Position numbers and translations under genes: made by a program. Below are positions 28,837-60,483 of a stretch of DNA of 64,000 nucleotides, piece by piece. Below the pieces are notes generated by a model, which saw only the letters and a program-made list of their open reading frames with translations, had not been told where the DNA came from and made no database searches. The stretch is from Azolla caroliniana (lineage: Eukaryota > Plantae > Polypodiophyta): positions 1-64,000 of the forward strand of contig JBHGNT010000129.1 in the NCBI GenBank assembly GCA_043228905.1. The letters are read 5' to 3'. The stretch's first letter is position 1; every line of letters begins with the position of its first letter.

Positions 28837-29307
<471 letters not shown>

Positions 29308-32300: not shown

Positions 32301-32687
32301 GAAAATCAATGGGACTCGCTATCGATGAGTTAGCAGAAGCCAACCACTTGATTGAGTCGATCGGCCGATCCAATCAATTGAGAGAATGAGCCGACGGAAC
32401 CGGCAGAAATACCAACCAACCGGGTAAGAGGGGAGACCAACAACGGTCGAAATCGAGAAATAGCCGACTAGGAGATTTTTGCACTCATTGCAAAAAAGCC
32501 GATCATAACGTTTTCGACTGTTGGTCGATCAAGAGAAGAGAGAGCGGTTGGCGATCCGGGCGGAACCCAGGAAGATCCGACTCGAACCGCTCTCCAGTTG
32601 GTAACCAAATCAATGTTGCACTCCTGATTAGGAGAAATCCTCTCTCTAGAGGACTCGATGATTAGAGAAGTCCTCTACATTGCACTA

Positions 32688-32803
<116 letters not shown>

Positions 32804-33206
32804 GTTACTGGACTCCGGTGCCACATTTCACGTGATCTCGAACATCGAATGGTTTTTGAATTATTCAGCCAACAACATTAGCACAATCCGACTAGGCAAT
32901 GGGGAGGAGTGAAGAATTGCAAGAATTAGCGAAGTACCAATCCGATTAGTTCAGCATGTACCCGCACTAAAAAGAAGTATGGTCTCCATTGGCATGTTAG
33001 CTGAAGACAGGTACAGAATGACTCTGAGTGGGTCGACATGGATGATTAGCTGAGGAAATCTAAAGATTGGAAATGGATACAAGTACAATAACTTGTATCC
33101 AATAATGGTGATCAATCCAGAAGGGGCCGTGAATGTAGCCGAATCGGCCGACCTAAACCTATGGCATGGCCGACTCGGCCATATGTCACAAGCTGGACTT
33201 GACCGA

Positions 33207-33712
33207 TGTCGTGAGGATTTTTGACTATGGTGAGAAAACCCGAGTAGGACAGACAAAATGGGATGTGCAACATTGCACATGCACTTAGGAAATTTGTAAA
33301 ATAAGAATAAGAAAACAAACGTAAAAAGAAGGGTAAAATGTAAGGTGCTAAAAGTGCACTACAAAGTTTGTGAAGTATAAATGTAGACTAAAGGGGCATG
33401 CATGGAAGTACGAGTGTAATAAGTAGAGGGCATGTTTGTGTGTGAAAATGAGGGGAGAGGGAGTTAAGGCCCCTATCAATCTCTCCTCCTAAGATCAAGG
33501 CAAATATTCACCCTTTGAAAGGAGTGCAAGATTTGGCCTCTCATTTTGTAATAAGCCTCGCCCCTTTCTACTATAAAAAGGGGTAAGGGGTCACCATTGA
33601 GAGGGTCACCATTTTGTTGTTACCTATTTCGTTTCTACTTCATCTTTACCTATTTCGTTTTAGGGTTTTCGTTTGGTCATCGTGGTAGTAGTTAGGAAGG
33701 TTTAGGGTTTCA

Positions 33713-33779
<67 letters not shown>

Positions 33780-33973
33780 TAGTCATTATTGTTTCTTCTA
33801 GTTGTGCGTGGGTTCGGTCTAATCGGTCGTGATTGTAATCATTTTGTGGCTTTTCTCCTACCCTTTTGAGCTCGAAGGCCGTAAGGGTTAAGCTCCCATT
33901 TCCCTGCTACTCCCTAGGCCAAGACCCCCGTGGTCCCGCCCAAGCCGACATGTACTTGCGGATTTCCGTGACA
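33207..33973 (+). mobile_element. Solo LTR of the TGTCGTGA-type gypsy group inserted in the copia GAG-pre-integrase region
   Basis: TGTCGTGA...CCGTGACA ends, a TATA-like tataaaaag, and flanks ccga / ccgg. The host frame ...LDR|LMAVNYIPKL resumes after removal. Confidence 0.88.
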
Positions 33974-36900
33974 CCGGCTAATGGCGGTCAACTACATTCC
34001 TAAACTCCTGGTGAAGACAGACTTTTGCGAGCATTGTCGTTATGGGAAACAGACTCGAGGTCCACATTCTTTCCATTATGAGATGGTACGACATCCCCTA
34101 GAGCTCGAGCATACAAATATATGTGGGCCTATGCCTGAGCGATCACTAGGCGGCTCCCGGTACTTCATCACATTTGTAGATGATTGAACACAGAAGGTTT
34201 GGGCCTACTCGATTAGGTCAAATGACAAAGTGCTCAAGCTCTTCAGTCAGTGGACAGTTGAAGTGGAGAATCGATCATGATACAGAGTAAAGACGCTCCA
34301 ATTCAACAACGGAGGTGAGTACATCTACCAAGCCATTCATCCCAAGGGAGAAAAGAACCAAGTTGGCACCCCATGCACTAAATGCATATTCCTCGGTTAT
34401 GGAACCGATGTGGAATTCGGCTATCGACTATGGGACCTAGAGAACCAGAAATTGATCCAGAGTAGTGACGTAGTCTTCAATGAAGACTCTATTATCTCTA
34501 AGAGGAACGAACAAAAAATAGTTGGTAAAAGGTATCCTTCAAAGTTGGCGAAGATGTCGTAGAAGGACCGACCCATCGGGCCGAATCAGAGATTCGACAA
34601 ACAGTCGAACTCGACCAAGCCGACAACACACTTGCCGACTTTGAATCGGCAAGAGGTCCATTGGTCGAAATGGATTCGACTAAGAGATTGACAAGATCAA
34701 CATTGGCCAACCAAGGCAAAGCCGAATCAGCTAGAGTTGAGAAAGGCAAAGCCACGAAGTGTCAAGCCAAAAAAGATAGAGTTGATTCGACTGACATACC
34801 CAAAAAGGCAAAAGGAAAAACCGACCCGAGTCGGTTAAGTCTCCTACCCCTAAGTCAATCAATCCCCCAAAAGGGGAGGATGATGTGACATCGTCAAACT
34901 CGTATTATAGGGGTGAGTCATCCAAGAGGACTCCTGGCATAAGTGGTTCAATAAATGCCGATTGACCGACAGAGCCGATCGAAGGATCCGAACTGATCAA
35001 TTTCGCACCTAGGAGATCTGCACGCATTTGAAGACTGACAAAGTTCTACCAATTGGGCCTTGACTACGTCAACTACATCGATGTAGGCGAATCGAGCACA
35101 TACGAAGAAGCTATAGCCACACCGGACGCAGATACATGGCTGCAAGCCATGAGATCTGAAATGGACTTGATCCATCAGAACAAAACATGGGAGCTGGTTG
35201 AACTACTAATAGGAAGGAAGTTGCTGCCCTGCAAATGGGTATTCACATACAAATATGTATCCGATTCGGAGAATCCCAAATACAAAGCTCGGCTTGTCCC
35301 GAAAGGGTTCAAACAAAAACATGGGGTCGACTACGATGAGATATTCTCGCCAGTAGTCAAGATGACCACCCTTCGGCTCCTACTTGGGGTCGTGGTTACA
35401 GAAGACCTAGAGCTTGAGCATTTAGACGTTAAAGCGACTTTCCGACATGAAGACTTGGAAGAAGACATCTATATGTCTTAACCAATAGAATTCACGACGA
35501 CGGGGGAGGAAGGTCACCTCGTATGTCGATTAAAGAAAAGCCTTTATGAGCTAAAACAATCGTCGAGGATGTGGTACAAGAAGTTTGACTCCCACATCAG
35601 GCAACTTGGCTATCACCGGTTCGACTTGGCAACTGGTTGACGAGTCCCTGATCTATCTGATCCTATTCGTCAACGACATGCTGATTGCAGGGAGCAATCA
35701 AGCTGAAACCGGAAAGCTAAAGTGGATCCTTCACAACAAGTTTGCGATGAAGGAACTCAGGCAAGCCTGACACATATTGGGAATGAGGATAGAGCAAAAT
35801 CGGACAACAAAAACCACTGACTCTCCCAATCCGACTATATTCGTAAGGTGCTAAAGCGCTTCAACATGGAGAATGCGAATCCAACATCAACTCTGCTACC
35901 GACGTCGATTTGACTATTGGACAAAGAATGTCCTTCAACGGATGAGGAGAGAGAGCTCAATAGGAAGATACCCTACGCATCGGCCGTAGGAAGCATCATG
36001 TATGCGATGGTGGGGATCTGACCTGACCTTGCCTATGCCGTAGGGGTCGTCAGCTGATACATGTTGAACCCATGACAAAAGCATTGGGAGGCCGTCAAGC
36101 ACATCTTCAGGTACCTAAGAGGGACCGAGGATGCATAACTGACTTTTAGATTGGCAAACCAATCTGAAGTTGAAGTCTATTCCGACTACGACTATGCTGG
36201 AAATACGGACAATCGGAAGTCAACATCAAGCTATATCTTCACCTATGGTGGTGGCAGGAAGCCATCTAGTTGCACTAACTGACAACCGACTTCTTGACTA
36301 CAAAAGAAATCGACCATTTAGCGCCGACCATCTATCACGACTCACAGAGCGCAATACACCTCATTCGGAATCTAGACTATCATGCGAAGACGAAACACAT
36401 TGAGGTATGGTTTCATCACATCCGAGAGCTCGTAAAAGAGAAGAAGCTCGAAGTTTGGAAGATCGGCACCGAGGTGAACATCATCGATTGCATTATGAAG
36501 CCACTCCCAGAAAAACGCTTTGGAGTACTACGGACAAGGATGGGACTACGACAAGCGACCGAGCCGAAGAGCACCGAGCAAGGAGTAGAAGGTAAGTGAA
36601 AGACCGAACGACTTGAGCAAGCCGGCCCTGATGATTAGCCGAATCAAGCTAGATACCGACTCTACCTTTGCCGACTGACTTGTAACTATAAATTTAGATT
36701 AAATTGTAATCTAGGTTTACGGGGGAGATAACCCCAAGCTACCATTCTATGTAGAAAGAGTAGTCCTTTTACGGGGGAATTTGTTGGCATAAAAGACCGA
36801 CTCCTTCCACTTTGTAACTGTAGTGTGAACACGTCCTCTAGTTAGCATGGCTTGAGTATATAAGCTCAACCCTAACATTGTAACTAAATCTTCTTCTTCA

Positions 36901-38635
36901 GTCTTGTAGAGAGAGAGTTATAGAATAACAGAGAACTTCCATTGAAGCTTGAACTGTGTCCACGCTTCTGTTTCTTCATCTCTCATATTTTCTGTTTTGT
37001 TTCCTGAGCATAATACACAGGTTCTCATACACGCTTCCGCATATCTGTTCACATATACCCGAATAGGTGGGACACCTATCACAATAGACAAAAAGGCACA
37101 TTACAATGCACAATTCACAGTATATATATACCATCCTTGAATGGGCATATTATATTGGGAAAGTTCTTCTTGAGGGTCTCTTTTCCATGGAATAGTTGAG
37201 CAAGCCCGATGGATGCTCGTTGTTAAAGAAATGTGAAACTTTTGCCATGATTTGCGGCAACTTTATAGATGACTAAAAATATATATCTAATTATGATGAT
37301 GTGGGCAAACGGATATAATACAATCTCAAGAATTGAATAAGCTCATTGTTGTAGTCGCCGTGAACATTTTACTTCAATAGTCATTGTTCACAAAGTACTA
37401 CATGCTAGATTGTGATGGTTGACATTGTTCAAGGACACATGAATACATAGAAAGCCACAAAAACCCACTCAAGGCTAGCCATAATCCTCTAGATACCTAA
37501 TCCTAACTTGGAAACCATTTGAAAAATGAGTATATCCAACCCACACCAAACGCAAAACGATATGATCATTTGCTAGATCAAATAACTGATTGAGTAGGCA
37601 TGTGTAACAAAAAAAAATCCTTTGGTATTTAAGTACTCAGGAATCCATAAGTCATGGTTCTTGAAGAGTTAAGCCTCTATTATTTCTATTGAATGCACCT
37701 CTAGAGTATTTTCATGTGATCATAACTTGTATAACTACCATATCATGAAAGCCCTAAAAAGTGCTAATGTTTTATCATTTAAATTGTTGATTGATCTAAA
37801 TGGAAAAATTCTATTGTGTGCCTCCCCCTTTACTTTTCTTTCATTGTCTATGGCTTTGCGGGATGAATCACATATTGTGAATGAGAAGACAATAAACATA
37901 GATCATAACAATGACACTTTGAAGATTGGTCGACTACCAAAAAACATGCATGTTGAGCCTTCAAGATGGGAAATGCACCATTTCAATGAAGCAAGTGAAA
38001 AAGGACAAGGTAGAGAAGAATAGGGATGATCAACATGGCTGTGAAGGAGGCAAGAAAGTTTTCTTTAAAGAGAGTGCATAACAAAGATGTGGCACATGAG
38101 TCGAACATTAGTAGTGAATTGAGTGATGATCAAATCAAGTTCAAATAATTTGGGTTGTTGATCAATGACCATTAGCCATCATTGAGCTGACATACACATA
38201 AGTGATTGCTAGTGGAGAGTTGAGTGATGATTTTGCAGAGACATAGCTCACCTAAAGCTTGTGTAAAGAACCCTTACATCTCAACCACAACCACATATAT
38301 TTGTATCAATACATAATAATAGTGCAAAATGGCTACACATTAGAACTTATGAATTTCGGTCACTCATCAGATTTCTTAAACAAAATAATGACTCGTTTGC
38401 TTGGGAGGTTCATAGAACTTGAAATTTGGACACAAATAATGGCAATGACAGTTAATGCCTACTTATGCTCGTTGGTTCTTCATTTGAGGTTTACATTTTA
38501 ATGAGAGAAAAGTAGATGCATTATTATTGCACCGAACTTACAATGGTATATTTCTGCACCTCAAAGGGTTTTGGGCCTTGGCTTCTTATATACACATATG
38601 TGGTGCAAGACCACTTGAACACACAACCACCTCAC

Positions 38636-39670
38636 TAGGAGTCAGCAAGGGCTTGGCTCAAGCTTGACCCGAGCCATGAAACTATTTTTAACGGTTCGAC
38701 TCGTTTCAGACTTGAGCCTCCTTAACTGGTTTGAGCTCAAACCAAACCGAACTGGTTAAGGAATTGGTTTGACCAAACTAGTTAAGCATTAACCGGTTTA
38801 GGAATTGGTTCGGTTCAAGTTTGAAAACTCTGAAACCGTCGTCAAACCATTTTTTAATGGCTTGGTAGTTCAGGCTTGAGCCTCCTTAATCAGTTTGAGC
38901 TCAGTCTGTCAAGGCTCAAGCCAAACCAAACCGTTTAGGGCCAAATTAGTTGAGCCTTAATCGGTTTAGGAACATGTTCAATTCAAGTTTGAAAACTCTC
39001 AAACTGGTTACGGCGTAACCCGTTTGGTTTGGATGAAGCCAAGCTGGTTAAGTCAAAACCAAACCGTCGGATTCCTAGTTAGGCTTAATAGAAGGTAAAA
39101 AGGCTTGAATGCATTCAATTGCATCTTACTACCCCCATAAGTGTTGGTTCTCGAAGAGCCATAACACTTCTTTGAACTTGCTTAGTCAAGTTAAGCGTTG
39201 AGGTGACATCATGGCATCATCACTAAAGTATGAAGATATGCAAGGATTACAATGAAAACCTAATGGAGGATGAATATCACTTCTTGCAAGCTCCATATAG
39301 GGTAAGTCATGAGAACTTTGATGACTTGCTAGATGGTAACCAACGGTTGGAAACCAATTTGGAAACCTCCCTCCCTCTCTCCCTCTCTCACTCACTCACT
39401 CGGACAATCCACTATGTAGTATACAAGCTCCCTCCCTCCCTCTCTCTCTCAAGTTTCTAACTAATTTCTAACCTTCAAGTTTTTCTCTAACCTAAGTAGT
39501 AAACCACATAAACAGCTTAAGTTGTTGAGCCGGTTTGGCAAGGCTCAAACCAAGCCGAATCAAACCGAGCTCAAACCGTTTAGTCAAGCTCAAGCCTAAG
39601 CCGACTCTAGCCAAGCCGTTAAGCCGTTAAAAACCGGTTTATGCTTGACCCAAGCTGTTGCTGATCCCTA
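38636..39670. mobile_element. Composite hAT-type MITE enclosing a LINE 3' fragment
   Basis: TIRs TAGGAGTCAGCAAGGGCTTGG / CCAAGCTGTTGCTGATCCCTA, with an additional internal end at ~39077. TSD matches only ~5/8. The internal frame reads ICKDYNENLMEDEYHFL. Confidence 0.6.
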
Positions 39671-39718
39671 GATCTTACCCCGGTCCCCACTTACCTACTT
39701 GCACCCACAATATCACTC

Positions 39719-39913
39719 TTTGGATGCCCATGAGAAAATCTTTCATGTTTAACACCTTGGATGCCCATGAGACAACTCATTATAGTATCCGTTGCTTGAT
39801 GCCCATGAGACAACTCACTCTCTTATAATTACTTTGGATGCCCATGAGAAAATCTTACATGTTTAACACCTTGGATGCCCATGAGTCAACTCATTATAGT
39901 ATTTGTTGCTTGA
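39719..39913. repeat. ~115-bp tandem repeat built from GATGCCCATGAG subunits
   Basis: Five gatgcccatgag units arranged in two higher-order copies. Confidence 0.85.
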
Positions 39914-40943
39914 TACATGTGTAGCAAAGTGCAATGAAAATGTGAGGAGTCATGTATCCATTTAAAGTTTAGATGAATTGGCAAATCTATAACACAAAAT
40001 GACACCATCTTTCTTGGCATAACACTACACACAAAAGAATAACAAAAACAAATACACACAAAAAAGGTATTGTAATATGCGTAAGTTGATGTTGCTTCAT
40101 CAAAATCATGTGCGAGGAATCATGATTTGTTGATTAGCTAAAATGACCAAACCAAACCAAACCAAATAAACAAAACTCTTCACAAATGCAAGTATTAATG
40201 ATAAGGAAGGGTGCATGATTGTGTATAGCCTATATGAGGCAAAATAATTTCATTCTTTTATGTTGCTGATTCGAACGATTGCAATGAAATAGTTCAATAA
40301 TCAAACTTCACCAATATAGCTAGGGAAAGAATTAGAGCCCATAAGTTATAACTTTATTAAGAGAAAATATATCTACCGTATTCAAACATATTTGTCGGTT
40401 GGTAAGGCACATTCAATGTAGATGAAAATACCCCTAATAAGTAGCAAGAAAGTGGGATAACACAACATGTAAACACAAGTTGGCAAGTAGGCTATATGTA
40501 TAAATACACAACTAGGCAAAGATTGTGCTTTTACGTCATACTCATGTTTTACACATCATCAAGATAATTGAAGGCACATTTGGGTTGGGTCCACAAAGAT
40601 TGACTTATTTGTTTTTCAATCAGACAACAGTAGAGATTGCACAAATTGGAATCAAACCTAAGTGGACTGCTCATTTTTGAGGCATCCACTTGGGCCTTTA
40701 ATTATAAACACATTAACATTTGGAACTATTTGACTAGGCTTTTTAACACAAACTAGGCTATGGGGAGTAGTGAAAGATATCAAACATGAAAAGTAGTAGA
40801 TGAGAAAAGCAAAGAGATAAAAGAAAACGAAAAGGAAAGAGAAATAAACAAAGGAGCACACAATGAAGAAAGGTAGAACAACCGGAAACCACAATAAAAA
40901 TGCCAACTCTACAATTTATACACAAGACAATTATGATTGGTAT

Positions 40944-41293
40944 TAACAGTCGGCAAGAGTTCGGTTTGAACTGAACCGAGCTGCGAAACTGCGACTTAAT
41001 GGTTTAAACGGTTCGGTTCGGTTCATGTTCAGGTTTTAACGGTTCAGTTTGGTTTCAACCGTTAGAAACTGTGGTTTAAGGAAAATCTTTTCAATTTTTA
41101 AAATTTACAATTTAAATTTAAAATTTTGACCGAAGTTGAAAACCAAAACCAAACCACAAAACCACAGTTTTAATGATTTGAATTTTTTTTACCTTTTCGG
41201 TTTAACGGTATCGTGGTTTGGTTCAAGTTTCCAAATTTTTGAACGGTTTGGTTTTGACACTCTCAAACCGAACTATCCCGTTGCCGATTGTTA
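40944..41293. mobile_element. hAT-type MITE (TAACA termini)
   Basis: TIR TAACAGTCGGCAA / TTGCCGATTGTTA. TSD attggtat / atgggtat matches 7/8. Confidence 0.85.
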
Positions 41294-41447
41294 ATGGGTA
41301 TGTCAATCTAAATTTTCTTGATTACTATTGGTGGTGCAACATTACTCTTCATAATTCAACCAAGTTTTTCTTCTTGTTTTGAGGCCTTGTCTTGCAAGCA
41401 TGCAATGAGAATTTTGTTCGATTGAAGCTCCTTCACTCCATTATAAT

Positions 41448-42686: not shown

Positions 42687-43082
42687 ATTGTAATAAAATA
42701 TCATACTATACATATTGCTTCCTTGTATTTAACCTTCCCCTTTTCTTTTGGTCTAAGTAAGCATAAAAGCACATAAACTTCTATGTCATCAAAGTAATAT
42801 CCGAGAAAAACAATTCTAAGAAAAGGATAAATATTATTTAAATGATTGTTTAACCAATGTATCAATATTTGTAGGTTTTTTATTCGAAAGCCTTCATAAT
42901 TTAAAGATATTTGTGTATTTGAATTTCAAAATGTAAAGAATGAAGCAAATAAATTCAAACACATTTTGTTTTCCCCGAAAATTTAGATAGTGTTTTGGAA
43001 CATGTTTTTCATTTTCTGCATTTAGTTTCTTTAAATTGTAACTATTTGTTATTCCCAAAACTAATGGGATTTTCCAAAAAGA

Positions 43083-43375
43083 AGCTACTTTCCCATTAGT
43101 TAGGAGATATTATTACAAAAAGACTATATAAGGTGGCTTATACATAAATCAAGGAATCATCCTCCAACCGAGTTCAAGAATATGAGACTACGCACATATC
43201 ATTTCAAACTGACTACTTAATGTAAGTAGGCACTTATAGCTATAAACTAGTGCCCTTCATCACCAGCCAGTACGAGCTAGATCATATGGCCTACAACGAA
43301 GGGAGGGTGGGAGGTGAGTAGGAAACTATCAGCGTGGGGTTTGGTAGCTCCACCTCGGGCCGTTTCCTCCTTGCA
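43083..43375. repeat. Unclassified dispersed repeat; second copy at ~52794-53087
   Basis: aagctacttttcccattagttagga...agcgtggggg..tggtag.tccacctc is shared by both copies. Confidence 0.8.
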
Positions 43376-44176: not shown

Positions 44177-44241
<65 letters not shown>

Positions 44242-45949: not shown

Positions 45950-47030
45950 ACCTTCTTTTGAACGTGTTTGATTTGGATATTTTACTCCAGTTGATGTTAT
46001 GATAGGAGCAAAAGGAACGTCTCAATGAGACTGTTACTATTTGGACGTAAATGAGGAAGGAAGATTATGGCAAATTGATGTGGAATCATCAATTTGGCAA
46101 ACGACATTGCAACATCCGGTGAGAGTGATTGGTAAGTCTGGTAAAAGGTGGATTTTAGATCCTTCTCCTTTTGATAATATGTTGTTTTGCCAACTCTAGG
46201 TTTTAAAAAAAAATCATTCTTGGGCTTGCATTGGGATCCATCAGATTATCTTTGGAAACATACAAATCCTTCGTCTCAATATTCTGTGAAGTTGGGACAA
46301 AAGATGCTCTTAAGTAGGAAATTGCATCCGCCATCGCTATGAAAGTGTGGTTGGCGAATGGGGCCTCTTTAATGGATGCATCTAAATATTGGAAGTAGTT
46401 ATGGAGTATGCAAATTCCAAGGAAGATTGTCCTTTTTCATTGGTTACTGATCCATTATGCACTACTAGTTCGGGCTTGGTTACGAGAACTAGACAGTAAG
46501 TCATGTGGATTTGGTTGTGGATGTATGATGGAATCAATTAAGCATGTATTGTGGTCTTGTCCTAAAATGATGAAATTATGGCAAAGAGTATTAAGGTTGT
46601 TGATATTGATTGATACATGTTAATTGTGTGATCACTTGGGGTGCGAGTTAGGTGGGGCATTTTAGAGGGACAACTCTTGCTATATGAAAAGGAGGGATAT
46701 AGTGGAAGCCTTTCACATAGTTCCTCCTCATATACAAATGGTTCAACCTTTTATAAGTGATAGTTTGCAATTTAGGTATAATATTATCTTGAAGACAATT
46801 TCATCTATTCTGATGTGGGTAATTTGGAAGGCATGATGCACATTAGTTTTTGACAATGCCACTCAGGATGTTTTTGTTATAATTGCCGAATTCTGGTTGC
46901 TACTTGTTCATACATTACGTGGTCAGTATGAAAGTTTTACAAGCAATGTTGATGCCATTTTCAGGAAGCAAACACATTTTAAAAGGTTATGGGACTCTGC
47001 TCATTTTTAGGGATGATGCAGATATGCTCA
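45950..47030 (+). pseudogene. LINE (L1-type) ORF2 C-terminal remnant with zf-RVT
   Basis: IPRKIVLFHWLLIH...CGFGCG..ESIKHVLWSC and W.IWKAR motifs, with stops. Confidence 0.75.
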
Positions 47031-48769: not shown

Positions 48770-48952
48770 GTGGTTCAACCTTTTATAAGTGGTAGTTTGC
48801 AATTTAGGGATGATATTATATGGAAGACAATTTCATCTATTTTGATGTGGGTAATTTGGAAAGTGCGATGCACATCAATATTTGATCATGTCACTCAGGA
48901 TGTTGTTGTTATAATCGCTAAATTCTGGTTGTTACTTGTTCATACATTGCGT
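48770..48952 (+). pseudogene. Second LINE 3' fragment, paralogous to 46740-46920, cut by an LTR insertion
   Basis: Near-identical sequence up to ...HTLR, then TGTCGTAA begins. Confidence 0.8.
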
Positions 48953-49608
48953 TGTCGTAAAGAAAACCGGCCATAGGCGGAATCGAAGAAAAAGGTGCAT
49001 GAACCGGCTCTTACACGGGTGGACGCGAGGATTGATATATTGTACATAATTCGTAATTAGGGCAACTGGTGTAAATACTAGGTAGCACATTTATTAGGGG
49101 ATTTTGTGCGTATCTCTGTCGACAGGTACAGGGAATAAAGCAGTTTGGCTAAGGAAAAGGGGGGAACTATTTAAGGAGGGAGAGGAGGAAGGAACAGGTA
49201 TCGCGCGCTAGGGAGGACAAAGTGCTGCTGCAGATCTGAGTGCCGAGCTCTCTCTTCTCCTCCGACCGTCGGTCTTTGTGAATCAGAAGCTCGTTGCCTC
49301 TGCTTCGTGGACAACCCGTGCGCTTCCAGCAGAGGCTCTCCCCCTTTTGTTTGTTTCTGGGAGTCGAGCGAGTGCTGTCTGTGTGTGAGTAGGATCCCCA
49401 TGTCGGGCCCATCGCCGCCTTGCTGGTTGTAACCGTCAAAGTCGTATTCTCTTGTTATTGTATTCTCATGTGTTGTCTGTGTGTGTGAGTAGGATCCCCA
49501 TGTCGGGCCCATCGCCGCCTTGCCGGTTGTAACCATCAAAGTCGTATTCTCTTGTTATTGTATTCTCTTGTCATGGTAAACTCTTGTTATTGAAATCGAG
49601 TGTTACGT
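48953..49608 (+). mobile_element. Gypsy LTR (A), interrupted; contains a ~100-bp tandem duplication (~49377-49567)
   Basis: The start TGTCGTAAAGAAAACCG..C...GCGGAATCG resembles the LTRs at 52205 and 60124(rc). Confidence 0.75.
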
Positions 49609-51723
49609 TGTCGTGATGTGGCATGTCTAGTGCGAGAAAAAGTCAAAAATTGAGGATCCACACACATTTCACAAATACTTGTAAAAATGAAAATAAATAA
49701 ACCTAGGTCACAATGGCATTGAGTGCATGTAGAAGGTTGCAAGTAAGATTTGAACCTTGCACCTCTAAGATAAGAGGCAATTACCGTACCACTAAAGCTA
49801 CTACTAAGTGTTTTAGATGTTCTATATTTCTTTCTCATATTCAATATTCCATAGGAAACAAATGTACAAAACCGTGTACACAAAACCACGGTTTTAAGCC
49901 CATGGTTTTCTACATGTCACAAAGCAAAACTGTGTGCACAGAAACCATGGCTCCAAGCCCATGGTTTTGTGCATGGACAAACCTATATAACCCCTAGTAC
50001 GGCTTGTGTAAAGGGGGGGGCTCAATATAATATGACCATCATCATCACCATCAATAATATAAGCTTCTATTTCTTCTTCTACGCATCTATCTTGTAATTA
50101 TTTATCTACTTCTGAAAGTGTACAATCTTCAATCTTCTCAAGTGTAATAGGTCTTCCTCCAATCTTACATTCACATCGTCCTCTTCTCAATACCTTGACG
50201 GACATCCTCCTTGGTCCAAGACCCCGGTGGTCCCGCTCAAGCAAAGCACGCTTGCACGCGCATCTTCACGACATTTTTGGTGAACCCGACGTGAAGAGCG
50301 GTAGGGGAGGATGAAGCTAGACGAGGAATATCTAATGAAGGCAATGTCAAAGATGATGATGGAGTTTTCAAGAGAAGGGAAAACACGACATGCGGCCCAA
50401 CAAGCCGTCGAAAGCATGATGAAGCGAGTTGGGGTTTTCGATGGAGGCAAAGTCCAAAAATTTCTAAAGGCCTACAATGCCGAAATGGATTCAAGAGGAG
50501 TGGAGGAAGCAATGAGGCTGGAGTACTTTTGTCGAGTGGTGGCCGAACCGATCTTCGAAGAGATTAAAGAGATTCAAAAAACTCACGTTTCGTGGGTGTC
50601 CTTCAAAGAAGCTTTATGAGAATCATATGGTTACGAAGAGCAAAAGGGACGAGGTCTGTATGAGTTTCACGAATGGGTGTCATCGAGAAAGACCCACCAC
50701 AGTGCTATGCATGCATTCGTTGAGTTTGAGTATCGCTTCACTCAACTCTCGGACCAGGATCGAAGATTGGTGGGGGTGAATAAAGTTCTAATGTTTGTAA
50801 AGTCAATCGATCGGAATGAAAGGAAGGCCATTGGAATCCAACTCGAGGATGACAATGGTGAAAATGGCCTCACTGAGGATTGGGCCAAAGTGGAAAGGGT
50901 ATGCCGACAACACAATAAGAGGGAGATGAGATTCTCATCGACAACAACATGACCCACAAGGGATATTCAAAGGAGAATGGGATGTGGCAATAAAAACCCA
51001 CCGAAGGAAGAAAGCTCGAAGAGGGAAGCTTCGACAGAACTCAACATAGAAGCCTTGATGAGAGAGGCATTCATGAACTTAAAGGCGCAAGTCGAGGTTG
51101 AAGAGAAGCTGAAAACAAAACCGAGGAAAATGGTGATCGACGAAGAGGAGACCTCCCGACAAATGCAGACTAATGATGCGGCCAATACGAAGGCCCAGGT
51201 TCGGTATGACAGTACCATGGGAGAAGGTGTGAAACAAACCACCTTCTCGACTTATGGAGGAATGACGGTCGAGAGAAGGGCCGAAGACTCGAGAGCGGGA
51301 AATGTTGCTTTAAGAGTGGACGAGCATTTCGGAACACATGCTGTGTCCGAAATATCGAGTAATGAAGGTGCAAGCATGAGGGAAGCTTGCTGGATCAAGG
51401 GATGTAAAGAGTGCGAGGTCGACGTGATTGAGGCGGTAGCCACGAGGAACGAAATCGAGTCGCAGATGGCTAAGGAAGAGTCCACGACGAATGACCGTGT
51501 CGAGACTTTCCCAACACTTGATCTAGAGACTTGGGCAGTTGCGTCCGAGAGCCAACATGAGACCCAAGCGACGGAAAGTGGTGGGGAAGAAAATATTGAA
51601 GACAATGCGAATAACAACATTGAGCGAAAGATGGCTACGGATGAGAAGACGGTGATCGATGGTGTCGACGTTCTCCCCACAATTGTTCCTGAGACTTCGG
51701 CAGTTGTGCGCGAGTGTCAACGT
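49609..51723 (+). mobile_element. Gypsy-type element (B): 5' LTR 49609-50273, tRNA-Trp PBS 50278-50295, gag-like frame 50311-51723; right part missing
   Basis: TGTCGTGA...TCACGACA ends and PBS TGGTGAACCCGACGTGAA. Gag aligns by eye to the gag at 58900-59450. Three listed ORFs share one frame, split by two TGA codons. Confidence 0.85.
49690..49805 (-). other. tRNA-derived SINE-like / Pol III promoter cassette inside LTR B
   Basis: On the minus strand, A-box-like TAGCTTTAGTGG (49800-49789) and B-box GGTTCAAATC (49756-49747) at tRNA spacing are followed by a T-rich tail. No acceptor stem. Confidence 0.55.
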
Positions 51724-52204
51724 TGTCGTGAAGATTTTCGGCAATAGTGTGAAAATCCCATAAAACATACGAAATCGAGTATGAATCACATAATACAATA
51801 ACATTTTTAATATCTAAGTACAAATTGATGGAGGTTTCGAATGCACTTTATTACACGAGAAATGGACAACTAAATGTCAAGATATGAGGGTATAAAGTTT
51901 GTGAAAAGAAAAGAGAAAATTGTGAGATATCCTACATAGGCACGACAAATACGGCTCTCATCATATATAAGGTGGAGCAAAAGATATTATCTTTGTGTCT
52001 ATGTGTGGAGCATAGAGAGTTCAAGGTAACTTGAACTAAGAGTGGAGGTGGGCTAGCTACTCGTAAAGGGTTTTGGCCAACCAAAACCGAACCGGCGATG
52101 GAGACGGAGAACCGACGGCATCCGGCAACGGCACTGGCATCCGGTGACGGCAACCGACGGCATCCGGCGAGGCACCGGTAACCGACGGCATCCGGTGACG
52201 GCGT
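51724..52204 (+). mobile_element. Gypsy LTR (C) 5' portion, interrupted within a CpG-rich tandem array
   Basis: TGTCGTGAAGATTTTCGGC start, similar to 53088 and 33207. CCGACGGCATCCGG repeats at ~52112-52200. Confidence 0.65.
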
Positions 52205-52672
52205 TGTCGTGAAGAAAACCGTCCACAAGCGGAATCGGTGCACAGGAGCGTAGGAACCGGCTCTTCATACACGTGCGCCTTATGTTGTACATAGAAGATC
52301 CTCGGTAGGTAGGAAGTTAATAGGAAACGGCTCCTTCCTTGCCTATAAAAGGAGGGAGACAAGGAGGGGAGAGGGGATCGAAAAGTAAGGGAGGACGAAG
52401 TGCTGTTGGATTGTGGGCCGAAGGCTTCTCTCTCTTCCAAACTCCATAGCTTCTTTCTGTGCAGGTTTCGGGAGGTTCGCGCTGCTCTGAGGAATGCCCG
52501 AGTGCTTCCGGCAGCACCTCCAACCTACTTCTTCCTTTCTGTACGTTTACGAACAGGCATCGGCATCTGTTCGCCGGCCTGTTCGGTTGTAACCGACTTC
52601 GTGCCTGTTGTTTGTCTTGTTTATATATATTTCTACATACATTCGTGTCTCTCTGTGTCGCTGTCGCTCTCT
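52205..52672 (+). mobile_element. Truncated LTR (D), same family as the LTRs of element F but in opposite orientation
   Basis: Reverse-complement similarity to 53350-53839. Confidence 0.85.
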
Positions 52673-53912
52673 CATCAGCATGGAGGCTGCAAATAAGTAT
52701 TAAATCGAAAATGTTTTTAGGTCCCTTTCTCCTCATGAATGGATGGATGAATTTATGGTTAGCATTAGCTTCTTCTTTTTGTTTTCCAAAATAAAGCTAC
52801 TTTCCCATTAGTTAGGAAGCATTATTAAAAGGAGACTATACAAGGAAGCTTATACACAAAATGGGAAATCTCCCTCCGATCAAGATCAAGAAAATGAGAC
52901 TACTTACATAGTTTTCCAAACCGACTACCTAAAGTAAGTAGATACTTATACCTAAAAGCAATGGCCTTTAGTGACGGTCAGAATCAACTGACTCTCGGGG
53001 CCTACAAAGAAGGGAGGAAGGCATGAAAGAAGGAAACAACTAGCGTGGGGGCTGGTAGTTCCACCTCAGTCCACTTTCTCCTAGCGATGTCGTGAAGAAT
53101 TTCGGCCGAAGGCGGAAACCGGGAAATATTGTCTACATCGACGGGGTGCAACATGTGCGCTCACCCTTGTACATTTAGTGTGAATAACGAGGGCGCTTTT
53201 ATGACATTGTCGAGGTATTCCTCGCGGATGCGTGGAATGAGGCGGAACCTCGGGGGTCCTGTACCAAAGAGCGAGAGAGGAAGGGGAAGAAAGCCTCTAC
53301 GTGCGAGCGTAGATCCACAGGGACACGGCCCTTCGACGCAAAGACGCAAGTGGGACAGCGACACAGAAAGACACGAATGTATGTATGTATTAACAAAGAC
53401 AAACAACAAGAACACGAAGACAACAAAACACGAAGTCGGTTACAACTGAACAGGCCGGCGAACAGATGCCGATACCTATTCGTAAACGCACAGAAAGACA
53501 GGAACAGGTTGGAGGTGCTGCCGGAAGCACTCGGGCATTCCTCAGAGCAGCGCGAGCCTCCCGAAACCTGCACAGAAGGAAGCTATGGAGTTTGCGAACC
53601 AGAGAGAGAGAGAGAGAAGCCTTCACACGCAAACCGACAGCACTTCGTCCTTGACTCTCCGCGATCCCCCCCCCCTTCTCGTCTCCCTCCTTTTTATAGG
53701 CAAGGAAGGAGCCATTTCCCCTTTACTTCCGACCCACTAAATCTACCCGCCTAGGATCTTCTATGGACAACATTCGAGAAGAGCCGGTTCGTACGCTCCT
53801 GTGCACCGATTCTGCTTGTGGACGGTTTTCTTCACGACATCCGCCCCCACCTAACCGCGCATCCACCGGCATGCGCCAAATTGAGTCGGGCCGGAGAAAA
53901 CCGGTCCAGCCT

Positions 53913-56900
53913 TCATTCCCCGCCCGTCGGTTCTTCCTCGGTTTCGGATCGTTCGTCGTCGCGGTCCAGGCCCACTGGATCCGGCTCGTCGTCGTGACGC
54001 TTCTTGAACGCTTTGATCCGCTTTCCAGCTACCGGTATCGCCATTCTCATGCCGTCGAGCTCCGCCAGATGGTACGTCCCGTTGTCGTTGGCGCTTTGTA
54101 CCACGTAAGGCCCGAACCACCTTCTTGCGAACTTCCGTGTCGCTCGGTGCTGGTTGTCAAGGCTGCTGTCGTAGACTAGCACCCAGTCGCCTTCCTCGAT
54201 CTTCTTCGGCCGGAGCCGGTGCGTTCTGTCGAACCGGGCTTTGTTCCTCATCCTTGCTTCCCGAAGCCTTTCCGCAGCCTGCTCCACGTCCTCTGGTCTT
54301 CGCTCGAGCTGTCGTATACGCGCCGCCAGTAGTTCCTCCCGGCTCATCTCGTCTCTCCAATCCACGGTTGCCCACGAGGTGATCGTACGTTCCATCGGCA
54401 TGACCGGCTTCTGCCCAAACATGAGCTCTGCCGGCATGAATCCGGTTACCGAACTGTGCGTAGCTCGGTCCGCCCACAACGCGTAAGGCAACAGCCGCGG
54501 CCAGTTCCCGACTTGACCTCCGCATGCCCGAACTAACGCCTTGACGATCGGTCCGTGTCCGCGCTCCACCTTCCCATTCGCCTCCGGATTGTACGCAGTG
54601 GTAAGCGAGAGCTTGACTCCTAGCCGGTCGAACAGCTCCTCGGCCTCTTCGGCGTCCAACTCCCCGTGATCAGCCACGATCTTCCCGACGCACTCGTACC
54701 GGAATATCACGTCCTCGATCAGGAACCGACATACGGCCGCGGTCGTTTTGTTCTGAAGGGCTCGGCCTTCCACCTGGTTCGTCAGATCTTCCCGAGCCAG
54801 GACCAGATACCGCATCTGTCCTACTCCCATCGGCATCGTCACCAGGTCTACCATCCATTTGAAGTGGATGGTCGGAGGGTATGTAGGGTGAAGCTCGTCC
54901 CGATGTCGGACTACGGAGTGCATCTGACAGCTCTCGCAAGTCGTCACGAACCGATGTACATCGCGGTACAGTCCCGGCCACCAGTACTTCCCCTTTATCT
55001 TCTCGAACGTGGCCCACGTTCCACGGTGTCCGGCCCAAGGGCTGTCGTGGTAGCCCGTCAGCAGCTCCTCCTGTTCTTCCTTCATCGCCACCACCCGGAG
55101 CGGGACGCCGTTCCTCTTCTTCGGGTGCTTCCATAAGTATCCGTCCCGGAGAAAGAATCGGTAAGCTTTCTTTCGGATCCGGTTGGCCTCGTCCTTCGTC
55201 CACGACGCATCCGGCGTCATTGTCCTCAGAAACCTACCGATCTGCAGCCACTCGCCGTCGTACTTGCTCTCGTCGAAGCCGTTAAGTGTCGGAGTGCTCG
55301 CCCCATCGGTCGTCACGTACGCCGTCTCGAAGAAGTCCACGCTGACTTCTTCGTCCTCCGAAACCATGCCGCCCTCGTCATCAAACCTCGCCCTCGAAAG
55401 CATTTCGGCCATGGCGTTGTCCTTTCCGGAAATGTGTCGTATCTCCGGGTCCACGGACTTGATGTACGCTATCCACCTGAGCATCGCCAGGTCCGGTGTC
55501 GCGCATCCGGAAACCATGCCGAGAATCGGCAGGCAATCCGTTTCGATAATCACTTCTGTCCCAATCAGGTAGTCTTTGTCCGCCTTTACCGCCGAAACGA
55601 TACCCCAGAGTTCGCGTTTAACCTGGGCGTACCCTCGCTGTCGCTCACTGAGGACCTTAGCGCCGAATCGGATCGGGAACCGGGTGCCGTCCTCGTCTTC
55701 TTGGTTGACGACCCATCCGATCCCGGTCGGGCTCGTATCCACCGTTATGTATACCGGGGTATCCTTCTCGTAGACAGCCTTCCGGAGCGCCGGTGCTGCC
55801 GCAAGAGCTTCCTTGAGCTTCCGGACCGACTCCGTGTGCTCGTCTCGCCACTGGAATCTTTGCCCCTTCTTCAGCAACCCGTATAGTGGCTCCGCAACGT
55901 GGGCGTAATGCGGGATCCATATGTGGTAGAACGCGCATGCCCCCAGGAACCTCCGAACTTCCGTAACCGAGCTACAGTCGGTCTTCATCGCGGAGATGGC
56001 TTCTACCTTTGCCGGAGACGGCTTCCGGCCATATGGTCCACATAGGTGCCCGACCACCAGGATTTCTGATTGCCCGAAGGCCGATTTCTCCCCGGAGAAG
56101 GTGAGCCTCGCATCCTCTAGCCTTTGTAGCACCTTCTCGCAGTCGTCGATGTGTGTTGCTACAAATCGTCGCCATCCGTCCGGCCCGAGTGTCTCGTCCT
56201 TCTCTTCCACCGGGCACCCCTTGATAGGGATGTCGTCTAGAAACGACATGGTGATGTTCGGGATGCAATCCCTCAATACTTTGTTCATTGCATTCACCAT
56301 GTGGGCCACCGAGTTGGTCCCTCCTTGTGGCAGGGTACACATTCGCACTAGGCCGAGGGGAGTTCGCATCGTCGTAATGTCTCTGCTCTCCACGGCTAGC
56401 TGGAACTAGTCGTACCCCGAGTACAGATCACCGACCGAGTAAATCGACCTTCCGGCGAAGGCCTCCGCGAACTCGTCTATGGTCGGTCCGATTCCTGCGT
56501 TCCGGATGGTCACTCTGTTGACCAGCTACAGGTCCTGAATGAAGCGCAATGTTCCATTTTTCTTTGGTACGGTAAACCATCGGTTCGAGTATGGCGCGCT
56601 CGACGGTTCGAGAATACCCATATCGACTTTCTGCCTCAATAGCTCCATCAACTTCGGGATGTGAGCTCTCGGTACTGGAATCGGCTTGAGATTCCACGGT
56701 ACATGCGGTACCGTGAATATCACCATCGGCTCCACGATCGTCGGGTCCACGCACCCGATCTCTTCCAGTGAGAATGCGAAGGCTTTCCCGTGCCTTCCGA
56801 GCATTCTCCGAAACCGGTCTTCCTCCGCCCGCAGTAGGAACCCGCCCCCACCGATTTTGAGCTCCCGGAGCGTTCCGTCGGTGAAGGTGTGTCCTATGCA

Positions 56901-57257
56901 GGCCGGATCTCGTAAACTGGGGTCCGACGCCACCCCTCTGATTCGGGACTCGCTGCCCTCCGGCAAGGGTGCCGCGACCGGCCTTACCTTCCGATCCACA
57001 GTCTTGTACTTCGTGCTAACTCGGGCCATCCGATCCGACCCGAGCCCCCGACTGAAGTTCGCGATGACTTCGTACATCTCTTCGGAACATACCGGTATCG
57101 TCCGGTCTTCGTTAAGGTCTTCTCCGGCTACCTTCCTCAGCATCCCCAAGGTGTCGTCGAAGAAGACCGCCTCCACGGCTCCGCTGATTTTCCTCGTCCG
57201 GGCCGAGAACTCCGCACGCTCGAAGTCGCTCTTCCGCCCTTGTCTTTTCTCGGCCAA
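53913..57257 (-). pseudogene. RT-RNaseH-integrase of element F; two in-frame TAG stops near 56526 and 56407
   Basis: Motifs PKKNGTLRFIQDL, LPQGGTNS, FLDD, VDTSPTGIG, HDSPWAGH...CESC, NGKVERGH and WFGPY. Confidence 0.93.
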
Positions 57258-57320
57258 CGATGCCGACTATCATACACCCTCCGTTGTCGGAGAAGCAAAA
57301 TCTCCTACCTATCGTACAAT

Positions 57321-57387
57321 CGTGGGGTCTTTCCCGAGTGTCTGGACTGTCTCGGCCCCACGCCTTGGCAGCCCTCTCTAAAAATCC
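57321..57387 (-). promoter_or_regulatory. Candidate -1 ribosomal frameshift signal (G GAU UUU plus downstream pseudoknot)
   Basis: The heptamer abuts the gag-pro stop. After a 6-nt spacer, GGGCUG/CAGUCC and CGUGGGG/CCCCACG form interleaved pairings. Confidence 0.6.
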
Positions 57388-59449
57388 TCCCGGTTCTAGC
57401 CACCGAGGGATTCGCGGTTTCTCTCGTGGTTCGGCCGCACTGTCAGAAACTGAACCGAATGGCGCCCGTCCTGGCTTTTGACCCTCGCGTAGGCCGAACC
57501 GTTGTCTAGCACCTTGGTCTCCATTCGCGCCGCCGTGATGTACGGTTCCCCTAATATGACCGGGTGCGAGGACGTCTCCTGTACGAAGAAGTGCTGGTCA
57601 ATCTCGACGTCGCCGATCTTGACTCGCACGTTCGGGTAGGCCCCGTGTAGTTCCTCGGTGGCGCGCGTCGCCGCCCGTATCTTCCACCCGTGCTTGGTGT
57701 TGATCGGCCACTTTCCCTTCTTATAGAAGTCCATGGACATCAGGTTTATTTCCGAACCGTGGTCCACCAATGCCACCACCGGTTCCTGAACATCTCCGAT
57801 CTTTACCGGGGTCTCCGTGGTCGCTCGGGCCCAGTGAGGCCACGTCGTCGATGTGCGTCGTCCGCACCTCCACCGGTCTTTCCGGTTCCGTCTCCGTCGA
57901 CAGCCTCTTCCGTTTCACTAGGTCCACAATGGAGTCGTGGAACTCCTTCTTTGTGATCCCTAGCACCTCTCGCAATGACAACTCCACTTTGCTGTCGAGG
58001 ATCCGTTCTTCTAGGACCTTTCGTAGGTCCGTAGTCCTTTCTATTTCCGTCCCCAGTCGGTATCTGCCCTTCCTGGGGTTATCTTGCGCGTCGGACCCAC
58101 CGGCATTGTTCCGTCGTTGGCCGAATCGGGTCTCGTACCGTTGAGAGGGCCCGGCCGCTCCGGCTTTCCCCACTCGCTTGTCTTCAACCAGAGCCTCGTA
58201 GTTTCGGCAGGCGGTTTCTACAAAGCCCGTCTTCTCCTCGACCGGATCGCTCCACCCGGTTATTTCCCGGACCAGTCTCTCAGCACGGTCCGTTTCGTCT
58301 TTCCTTGGCCGTGCGCCGGCAAGACCTTCCAGCATTGCTGACCAGAATCCGTCTTTGCCCTCCTTACGGGCCTCGCTGCCCCCGACCCGAATGTCGGCCG
58401 ACGCCGAGTAGTGGATGGCCTCCACGTGTCGGGCCGCTGCCTCTTCCATCAGTCTCTTCATACCTCCTCGTCCGTCGTTTCGGTTTAGGGCCCTTCTGGT
58501 TTCGCCGGCGTGCACCCGGCCTTCCCACAGGTACACCACCCGGCGAAATCGCCGCAGTCCTTCCGGATGTGGCCGACCTCGTCGCACCACATGCACCTGT
58601 TCCCTACTGCCGGTCGTCGGTCACGAGCCGGTTCGCCGCCTTCCCTTCGAATCTGGGCGATCTGGAGATCCTTTATCGCCTGCGTCAACTCCTCCAGCGC
58701 TGCTCCTCCGGACGAGCCATTGACCATGCCGGTCGAAGCCGGACCGGTTTCGAGCCATTCCCGGGTTTCTTCCCTTCGTACTTGCGGCGCCGGTTCAAGC
58801 CTCCTTGCTGTAACAGAGCCCGCACCGGCCGCCCCGTTGTCAGCCCATTCTCGCCGTTTGTCGAAATGGCCACAAACTCTCTTAACCGCAGCCCAGTCGG
58901 TTGTCAACCCGTCTTCGGTTTCCAGCAAGGAGCCGACTTGATCCCGGTCCCGCTCGTCCACCGACTTGAAGAACAGTAGGACCCAGCTCGTATCCAGGAT
59001 AGTTCGATCAAGCGCCGAAAGGCGTGCAAAGCGTTCTTCGAACTCCCGGAGGAGTGCCGACGCGTTTCTTCCTTTGCCGGGGGACTCCACCCATTCCATG
59101 AAGTCCCGTTTCGAAAGCCGGAGCGCGTCATCCAGCCCATATTTCTCTAGGAGTCGAACTTCGAACTCCTCCCAGGTACGGCTCTCCGCCCGTACCTCGA
59201 GCACCTCCGCATGGATGCTCGGCATCACCACTCGAGGGAACCCGGCAAGACGCCTCTCTTCCGGAATGTCCCGCATCAGCATTTCCGCCCCGTAGGACGC
59301 CAAATACTTCGTAGCATCCTTTCCACTTAAACGGCCGATCGTACCGACCACCGCCTCAATGGCTCTGTCGAGGGCGCCGGTGCCCTCGCGTGTGCTCAAT
59401 ATCCGATCCACGGCCGAAGCCATGGCCTCCGCAAGATCCGACCCCCTCA
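57378..59449 (-). pseudogene. gag-protease of element F, with two frameshifts (~58540, ~57840) and a TAG at 57396
   Basis: Zinc knuckle CMWCDEVGHIRKDC and protease ALVDHGSEINLM. The frame ends ...REDF*. Confidence 0.85.
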
Positions 59450-60483
59450 TCTTCTGCTCTTCTGCCGCCTCTTTCACGTCGGGTTCACCAAAGATGTCGA
59501 GGTATTCCTCGCGGATGCGTGGAATGAGGCGGAACCTCGGGGGTCCTGTACCAAAGAGCGAGAGAGGAAGGGGAAGAAAGCCTCTACGTGCGAGCGTAGA
59601 TCCACAGGGACACGGCCCTTCGACGCAAAGACACAAGTGGGACAGCGACACAGAAAGACACGAATGTATGTATGTATTAACAAAGACAAACAACAAGAAC
59701 ATGAAGACAACAAAACACGAAGTCGGTTACAACCGAACAGGCCGGCGAACAGATGCCGATACCTATTCGTAAACGCACAGAAAGACAGGAACAGGTTGGA
59801 GGTGCTGCCGGAAGCACTCGGGCATTCCTCAAAGCAGCGCGAGCCTCCCGAAACCTGCACAGAAGGAAGCTATGGAGTTTGCGAACCAGAGAGAGAGAGA
59901 GAAGCCTTCACACGCAAACCGACAGCACTTCATACTCGACTCTCCGCGATCCCCCCCCCCTTCTCGTCTCCCTCCTTTTTATAGGCAAGGAAGGAGCCGT
60001 TTCCCCTTTACTTCCTACCCACTAAATCTACCCACCTAGGATCTTCTATGGACAACATTCGAGAAGAGCCGGTTCCTACGCTCCTGTGCACCGATTCTGC
60101 TTGTGGACGGTTTTCTTCACGACAACGCCAAAGAGTAATCAAGTCGGGACAAGAATCCCATGTAATAAGGGATTTATCCCACGATGCTACAGATCCCTCT
60201 CCTTGTTCTATAAAAGGGAGGGAGCGCCCTTGGTGAAGGGGTTGCCCATTTTTGCATTCGTAGGGTATATCGTTGGATTAAGAGACGTCATCTCTTTCTC
60301 TTTCTCTTCCTCTTGTTTAGGGTTTCGTTTCTTCTTCTTTCCTCTACTTCTTCCTGTTCGTCGTTCTGTGTATCGAGCCAGGGACATCTAGTGTTTTTGT
60401 TTTCTGCCCCGTCCTCTGTGCAAGACCCCGCTTGGCGCGACAAGGCCGAGAGCTCCCTGACCAGCGGCTTGGCAATAGACGAT

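What the first reader, a model, noticed from the sequence alone, without database searches (positions are those of the whole stretch)
33203..60128. Trp-primed gypsy LTR group appears to integrate specifically at CpG dinucleotides (7 of 7 junctions are N-CG-N)
Seen in sequence: the 4 bases next to each outer TGTCGT.A LTR start are ccga (33207; other side ccgg), gcgt (48953), acgt (49609), acgt (51724), gcgt (52205), gcga (53088) and gcgt (element F on its own strand, 60125-60128). F's other flank is acat, explainable as acgc decayed by two transitions. CG is always at the two central positions, although the hosts differ: copia coding DNA, a LINE, other LTRs and a gag gene. The CG belongs to the target. 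The uninterrupted LINE paralogue reads tta-cgt-ggt at ~46915-46923, the copia frame restores GAC-CGG-CTA, and F's internal PPT/LTR junction (cgga) lacks the pattern. Inference: the integrase makes a 4-bp staggered cut centred on CpG, possibly methyl-CpG. In a CpG-depleted genome this would steer insertions into young CpG-rich transposons without a chromodomain, and would explain the nesting. I do not know of this being described for plant LTR elements, but cannot search.
Basis: partly seen in the sequence, partly recalled or inferred. Interest (0 to 1): 0.85.

Follow-up and report, generated by a model that had tools for sequence, protein, structure and literature searches.

The report
CpG-targeting Phygy-like plant retrotransposons
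These jumping-gene copies sit almost always on a CG base pair in the middle of a four-base duplicated target across this plant genome, which likely reflects a sequence preference of their integrase enzyme and matches a habit already published for the Phygy retrotransposons of moss.

Summary
All 7 window flanks read N-CG-N. Across six related LTR families in G000, 174 of 206 outer junctions have a central CG, 27 have TG/CA (its transition products) and 5 something else. A co-resident copia family gives 0 of 32, with 5-bp duplications. Internal PPT and PBS junctions give 0 of 137. Empty homologous sites carry one copy of the tetramer for B, C, D and F, so the CG belongs to the target. Neumann et al. 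2019 (PMC6317226) report the same habit for the Phygy lineage: 4-bp TSD, NCGN, tRNA-Trp primer, no chromodomain. These elements meet those features; the tree-based membership test could not be run. Added here: the motif is narrower, V-CG-B (T before CG in 2 of 174 against 33% background). The methyl-CpG idea was not tested directly and gets no indirect support. Flanks are as CpG-rich and repetitive as random CpG sites or copia flanks, so CpG targeting is not needed to explain the nesting.

The parts
33207..33973 (+). Element A, solo LTR of the Trp-primed group, inserted in a decayed copia element; flanks CCGA (33203-33206) and CCGG (33974-33977)
48953..49608 (+). Element B, 5' part of an LTR; left flank GCGT (48949-48952); the empty site in the C5 homologue reads GCGT once
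49609..50273 (+). Element C, 5' LTR inserted in B's LTR at ACGT (49605-49608); 18 of 23 displayed B-family paralogues have a CG-centred tetramer there. Three C-family copies with both LTRs are about 3.67 kb, likely non-autonomous
50278..50294 (+). Primer-binding site of C, complementary to the 3' end of the host's tRNA-Trp(CCA)
51724..52204 (+). Element D, 5' part of an LTR inserted in C's internal (gag-like) region at ACGT (51720-51723); 20 of 23 displayed C-family rows read ACGT, the other 3 are a second repeat unit
52205..52667 (+). Element E, truncated LTR related to F's (81-82% identity), inside D's LTR; left flank GCGT (52201-52204); in-register paralogues read GCAT; cut off by the deletion near 52668
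53088..60513 (+). Element G, 5' LTR interrupted by F and by copia H; left flank GCGA (53084-53087). The element goes on beyond the window to C129:70433, right flank GCGT
53208..60124 (-). Element F, full-length 6.9-kb gypsy element; 5' LTR 60124-59495, 3' LTR 53839-53208 (98% identical); flanks ACAT (53204-53207) and ACGC (60125-60128); the empty C5 site reads ACGC once
53913..56405 (-). pol ORF of F (P0001): RT, one RNase H, H2C2 zinc finger, integrase core; no chromodomain and no second RNase H by Pfam
57721..58620 (-). ORF of F with a weak DUF4100 match (below the curated cut-off), in the gag region
   Evidence: the same family passes the cut-off in copy L122
46643..46646 (+). Empty target GCGA: the C5 homologue carries an F-family element here, flanked by GCGG and ACGG
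32508..32511 (+). Empty target ACGT: the C5 homologue carries an LTR with this group's termini here, flanked by ACGT on both sides
60514..64000 (+). Copia element H (control), 5-bp duplication GGGCT; runs on to C129:65910

Best explanation
These are tRNA-Trp-primed, chromodomain-less Ty3/gypsy LTR retrotransposons, likely of the Phygy lineage, that duplicate a 4-bp target centred on CG, likely because their integrase makes a 4-bp staggered cut and itself selects the sequence V-C-G-B (A preferred and T avoided before the CG). Shown: the 4-bp duplication, the central CG, its origin in the target, the T avoidance, the Trp primer site and the domain content. Inferred: the integrase reads the target as a two-fold symmetric complex and bends it at the central pyrimidine-purine step, as described for retroviral integrases with 4-bp duplications; the restriction to CG among such steps would need base-specific contacts. 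Inferred: the TG/CA variants and the mismatched flanks arise after insertion by deamination of methylated cytosines. The bias toward young, CpG-rich repeats would be a passive result of where CpGs lie and needs no methyl-reader.
For: 174 of 206 outer junctions CG and 27 TG/CA; copia 0 of 32. One count per insertion outside the window: 121 of 139. Of 62 two-sided events, 36 have identical 4-mers and 21 differ at one base; none of the 62 has a 5-bp match, while 10 of 10 copia events do. In the 60 pairs kept, 26 of 27 mismatches are transitions. TG/CA rises from 2 of 41 junctions in family F to 11 of 32 in the more diverged family A. Internal junctions 0 of 70 (PPT side) and 0 of 67 (PBS side). 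Empty/filled pairs for B, F and two C5 insertions and for C and D. T before CG in 2 of 174 outer positions against 33% of background CGs; 1 of 36 exact duplications contains TCG/CGA against about 20 expected. The PBS matches host tRNA-Trp(CCA) genes, 4 of 4 loci checked. Phygy: 186 elements, 4 bp (100%, NCGN), tRNA-Trp 81%, no extra domain, no extra ORF (PMC6317226, supplement 5). Central flexible YR steps at 4-bp sites: PMC4422553, abstract.
Against: No sequence labelled Phygy could be obtained, so lineage membership rests on features and not on a tree. F-family elements (6.1-7.0 kb) are shorter than the published Phygy range of 7.66-9.97 kb. 5 of 206 junctions are neither CG nor TG/CA, and E's paralogous sites read GCAT. 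Each genome search scored only 40 of 899-5099 candidates, best hits first, so the sample favours young copies. That the integrase alone sets the preference is untested; a host factor or a methyl mark is not excluded.
Confidence: 0.82

Rival explanations
1. The integrase, or a partner, prefers methylated CpG, and so steers insertions into silenced repeats without a chromodomain.
For: Targets are CG in 174 of 206 junctions and later decay by C>T/G>A, which suggests the sites are methylated at least after insertion. 116 of 144 flanks are repetitive against 328 of 600 random positions.
Against: Flank CpG density (0.049) is not above that of random CpG sites (0.053) and equals that of copia flanks (0.051). 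The repeat fraction is not significantly above random VCGB sites (448 of 600, p=0.16) or copia (17 of 22, p=0.77). No methyl-binding or chromo domain in Pfam scans of pol or of near full-length relatives. Decay after insertion says nothing about methylation before it. These proxies are weak: no methylation data were examined.
Confidence: 0.12
2. The group is a separate lineage from Phygy (for example TatI, or an unnamed clade shared with fungi) that reached the NCGN preference independently.
For: TatI also has a 4-bp TSD and a Trp primer (4 elements). The top language-model look-alike of the integrase is a cluster whose commonest known phylum is Basidiomycota (phylum known for 3 members). Element length lies below the Phygy range. 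CG-centred 4-bp targets also occur in Ginger1 (CCGG/CCGT) and the Drosophila ZAM subgroup (CGCG).
Against: TatI is defined by a second RNase H (aRH, 100%), which Pfam does not find in P0001 or in near full-length relatives. The combination Trp primer, 4 bp, NCGN and no extra domain is listed only for Phygy. The nearest named relatives are from liverworts and a fern at up to 61-69% identity over RT and integrase, and Phygy is reported in a liverwort.
Confidence: 0.12
3. The NCGN tetramer is an artefact: part of the element's end, a mis-set LTR boundary, or chance in CpG-rich DNA.
For: The group's DNA and its neighbourhoods are CpG-rich (flank CG frequency about 0.05).
Against: Internal LTR junctions 0 of 137. 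The outer bases vary from copy to copy and match across each element. Empty sites hold the tetramer once. Copia in equally CpG-rich DNA gives 0 of 32.
Confidence: 0.01

Closest known systems
Phygy lineage, non-chromovirus Ty3/gypsy (Neumann et al. 2019, PMC6317226; seen: passages, one section part, supplement 5)
   Same: 4-bp TSD with NCGN preference, tRNA-Trp PBS, no chromodomain, no aRH, polyprotein filling the internal region.
   Different: Defined there as a clade specific to Physcomitrella patens, 7.66-9.97 kb. Here a different genome (inferred: 523 Mb, 43% GC sampled; the moss figures are recalled), F family 6.1-7.0 kb, at least six families including a likely non-autonomous 3.7-kb one. 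The motif is resolved here as V-CG-B with T avoided.
Ginger1 DNA transposons (Bao et al. 2010, PMC2836005; seen: passages)
   Same: Gypsy-type integrase with a 4-bp, CG-centred TSD (CCGG 75%, CCGT/ACGG 24%) and TGTNR termini.
   Different: Cut-and-paste DNA transposons with inverted repeats, in animals. Here CCGG is a minor class (2 of 36 exact duplications) and ACGT, ACGG/CCGT and ACGC/GCGT dominate.
Drosophila errantiviruses, ZAM subgroup (PMC5408687; seen: passages)
   Same: Gypsy LTR elements with sequence-specific palindromic 4-bp targets (TATA, CGCG or ATAT by subgroup).
   Different: The target is CGCG, whose central step is GC; insect elements with three ORFs.
Retroviral intasomes with 4-bp duplications, such as prototype foamy virus (Serrao et al. 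2015, PMC4422553; seen: abstract)
   Same: Enrichment of a flexible pyrimidine-purine step at the centre of the site, strongest for short duplications. PFV integrase is the closest solved integrase to P0001 by sequence (E 6e-19).
   Different: A weak statistical bias over any YR step there; here almost only CG.
TatI lineage (PMC6317226, supplement 5)
   Same: 4-bp TSD, tRNA-Trp PBS.
   Different: TatI carries an extra aRH domain, not found here, and no NCGN preference is listed.

Membership tests
Phygy | Clusters with Phygy in RT/RH/INT phylogeny (the primary definition in REXdb) | not testable with these tools
   The REXdb FASTA supplement was too large to read; no Physcomitrium-labelled hit in three homologue searches or the cluster look-up.
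Phygy | Ty3/gypsy domain order RT-RH-INT | tested here: met
Phygy | 4-bp TSD | tested here: met
   36 of 62 two-sided events exact at 4 bp and 21 at 3 of 4; none matches at 5 bp
Phygy | NCGN target preference | tested here: met
   174 of 206 junctions; 121 of 139 events outside the window
Phygy | tRNA-Trp PBS (81% of members) | tested here: met
   PBS after 67 LTR ends, complementary to host tRNA-Trp(CCA) genes
Phygy | No chromodomain, no aRH | tested here: met
   Pfam scans of F's ORFs, two other copies and four relatives
Phygy | Length 7.66-9.97 kb (descriptive range from one moss, not a defining rule) | tested here: inconclusive
   F 6.1-7.0 kb and un-nested B about 7.0-7.1 kb fall below the range; D about 8.0 kb falls inside
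TatI | Additional aRH domain | tested here: not met
   Only one RNase H region in P0001, P0122, P0124, P0310 and P0311
Chromoviruses (Tcn1, Galadriel and others) | Chromodomain at the integrase C-terminus | tested here: not met
   No Pfam Chromo hit; the ORF ends about 220 residues after the integrase core match
Ginger1 | DNA transposon with terminal inverted repeats and no RT | tested here: not met
   Direct LTRs, PBS, PPT and RT are present

The most novel reading that the evidence does not exclude
The integrase of this seed-free-plant clade reads methylated CpG directly in its target-capture site, giving a chromodomain-free route into silenced DNA and a natural CpG-specific integrase.
Probability: 0.12. 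Interest if true: 0.75.

Novelty: new member of a known kind. Interest (0 to 1): 0.24.

Why it matters
The habit itself is published, though in the text seen only as one sentence and one table cell; 18 held papers mention Phygy at all. This genome adds a larger sample with controls, empty-site proof, a finer motif (V-CG-B) and signs that the clade spans liverworts and ferns. A plant integrase that is close to CpG-specific is a clean model for how integrases read target bases. For annotators it also means that CpG decay hides these 4-bp duplications: 26 of 62 two-sided events no longer match exactly. If methylation dependence were shown it would be a new targeting mechanism, but nothing here points to it.

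Tried and rejected
Element-end or boundary artefact: rejected. TatI, chromovirus and Ginger1 membership: rejected on domains. Tree-based Phygy test: no labelled reference was found. Cross-species TSD test from metagenome contigs (80 loci, mostly from one series of assemblies): most are short or collapsed contigs. Four showed an outer LTR junction by eye (L281 CCGT, L282 CCGC and ACGT, L286 GCGG, L313 ACGT); all are NCGN but too few, and likely from close hosts, so they were not counted. Preference beyond the tetramer: modest deviations at several outward positions (p 0.0004-0.006, uncorrected, paired flanks not independent), not pursued. Literature searches; in the listings and passages seen, none describes V-CG-B or methyl-CpG dependence for plant LTR integrases. 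The 'NCGN' search returned mostly kidney-disease papers (30 of 93 listed). The paper on CpG methylation and retroviral integration in vitro (PMC49326) is not held; only its title was seen in a reference list. PMC6911290, PMC7466625, PMC6839031 and PMC12477314 were searched by passages and added no CpG-targeting claim; PMC6911290 confirms 4-bp TSDs for Phygy and Phygy nesting into Tcn1. Earlier findings of this scan: none. No structure prediction was run, since it would not decide the question.
Full report
1. Observation. The seven flanking tetramers are in the window exactly as reported. The region is a nest of LTR elements. A is a solo LTR (33207-33973) in an old copia element. B (48953) contains C (49609), which contains D (51724), which contains E (52205). 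G (53088) contains the full-length F (53208-60124, minus strand) and a copia element H (60514 onward). Comparison with a collinear 89-98% identical region on contig C5 shows that B, C, D and E lost their right ends in a deletion near 52668. So only A, F and, beyond the window, G show both flanks: CCGA/CCGG, ACAT/ACGC and GCGA/GCGT.

2. Is the CG part of the target? Yes. The C5 region lacks F and B and reads ACGC and GCGT once at those places. The window in turn lacks two C5 insertions and reads GCGA (46643-46646) and ACGT (32508-32511) once. For C, 18 of 23 displayed B-family paralogues have a CG-centred tetramer at the site; for D, 20 of 23 rows read ACGT (display capped at 25 rows, self-matches removed). 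For E the in-register paralogues read GCAT, so that case is not confirmed. Internal LTR junctions never show a central CG: 0 of 70 on the PPT side and 0 of 67 on the PBS side.

3. Genome-wide test. I searched G000 (523 Mb) with the LTRs of F, A, B, G, D, C and, as a control, copia H. Each search scored the best 40 of 899-5099 candidates. I used 190 group loci and 30 copia loci. Of 380 group LTR ends, 32 failed an alignment or terminal filter and were dropped, 137 were internal, and 211 were outer; 5 duplicates were removed. Of 206 unique outer junctions, 174 have a central CG, 27 TG or CA, and 5 something else. By family the CG counts are F 39 of 41, D 37 of 39, G 26 of 28, C 31 of 36, B 22 of 30 and A 19 of 32; copia H gives 0 of 32. 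Counting once per insertion and leaving out the window and its homologue gives 121 of 139, against a local CG frequency of about 0.05. Of 62 two-sided events, 36 match at all four bases, 21 at three, 3 at two, and 2 at one or none (likely mis-paired). None matches at five bases, while 10 of 10 copia events do. In the 60 pairs kept, 26 of 27 mismatches are transitions, as expected from methyl-cytosine decay after insertion (inference).

4. The motif is narrower than NCGN. On 400 kb of evenly placed background (40 stretches), T precedes 33% of CGs. At the junction position away from the LTR, T precedes the CG in 2 of 174 cases and A in 95 of 174. Among 36 exact duplications, ACGG/CCGT 12, ACGT 10 and ACGC/GCGT 9 dominate, and only 1 contains TCG/CGA against about 20 expected. 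C-to-T decay would add T at that position, so the deficit is not a decay artefact. The target is best written V-CG-B.

5. What the elements are. F's pol has RT, one RNase H, an H2C2 finger and an integrase core, with no chromodomain and no second RNase H; the gag region has a DUF4100 match. The PBS is complementary to the host's own tRNA-Trp(CCA) genes (62 pattern matches, 4 of 4 checked by ARAGORN). Named relatives come from Riccia, Adiantum, Calypogeia and, more distantly, Chara. A language-model search puts first a cluster whose few known members are mostly Basidiomycota (a lead only). The host is a plant, likely a seed-free one (inference from these relatives).

6. Comparison with what is known. 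Neumann et al. [quoted passage not shown] Their supplement 5 lists Phygy as 186 elements, 4-bp TSD (100%, NCGN), tRNA-Trp 81%, no extra domain or ORF, 7.66-9.97 kb. Phygy is also reported in a liverwort genome (PMC12885004, passages). The group works like Phygy and meets the target, primer and domain features. F is shorter than the published range. The phylogenetic definition could not be tested, because the reference FASTA was too large to read and no labelled member turned up. TatI shares the primer and TSD length but needs an aRH domain, which is absent. CG-containing 4-bp targets are also known for Ginger1 transposons and the Drosophila ZAM subgroup.

7. Mechanism. The 4-bp stagger and the CG centre are shown. 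That the integrase selects them by bending at the central pyrimidine-purine step plus base contacts is inferred from retroviral work (PMC4422553, abstract; PFV integrase is the nearest solved integrase). Genome CpG o/e is 0.79. Flank CpG density is 0.049 for the group, 0.053 for random CpG sites, 0.051 for copia and 0.036 for random positions. Repetitive flanks number 116 of 144 for the group, 448 of 600 for random VCGB sites, 17 of 22 for copia and 328 of 600 for random positions (repeats judged against the fetched loci only). So picking CpGs does enrich for repeats passively, but there is no significant excess that would point to methyl-CpG reading, and copia nests as often without any CG preference. 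No methylation data were examined, so the methyl-CpG rival stays open at low odds.

8. Verdict. A sharp and correct observation of a real target preference, but a rediscovery of a published property of the Phygy lineage in another genome, with a modest refinement (V-CG-B). Novelty: new member of a known kind. Interest 0.24. Supplements 1 and 3 of PMC6317226 could not be read and may already hold the finer motif.

Noticed in passing
window 20174-60513 against G000:C5:2725001-2760000: The window's contig (71.5 kb) is collinear with a C5 region at about 89-98% identity, with many presence/absence differences of transposons: either a second haplotype or a duplicate.
   Followed up: partly
window about 52668: A deletion removed the right halves of four nested elements (B, C, D, E) and about 700 bp of host DNA; the junction has a short shared stretch (TCTCTCATCAGC region).
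   Followed up: partly
window 25678-30051: A 4.4-kb hAT DNA transposon (Dimer_Tnp_hAT and zf-C17orf113 hits, short inverted ends, 8-bp duplication), absent from the C5 homologue; it encloses an ORF for a ubiquitin-RPS27a fusion at 28837-29307, possibly a captured gene.
   Followed up: no
L208/L209, L210/L218, L217/L226 (C family): A young 3.67-kb family (LTRs 98.8-99.7% identical), likely a non-autonomous derivative that keeps the NCGN target.
   Followed up: partly
G000:C8:17.797-17.823 Mb, C16:4.99-5.11 Mb, C5:10.106-10.112 Mb: Tandem or clustered matches to the tRNA-Trp 3' end, about 1.2 kb apart on C8 (16 matches); probably tRNA gene arrays (these clusters were not scanned with ARAGORN).
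   Followed up: no
window 1509-4013 (-) and 5151-5933 (-): Host genes: a Suv3/DExH18 RNA helicase in one 834-codon open frame, and a weak p34 adaptin-binding match.
   Followed up: no
window 16077-17768 (-) and 14842-15534 (-): Open frames of 563 and 230 codons with no Pfam match.
   Followed up: no
3' ends of LTRs in families A, B, C, G: The LTR 3' ends are shared across otherwise different LTR families (a GGTCCC.CC motif, then ...GCGACA), while D and F have a different end; all begin TGTCGT and end CGACA, an inverted 5-bp terminus that itself contains CG.
   Followed up: no
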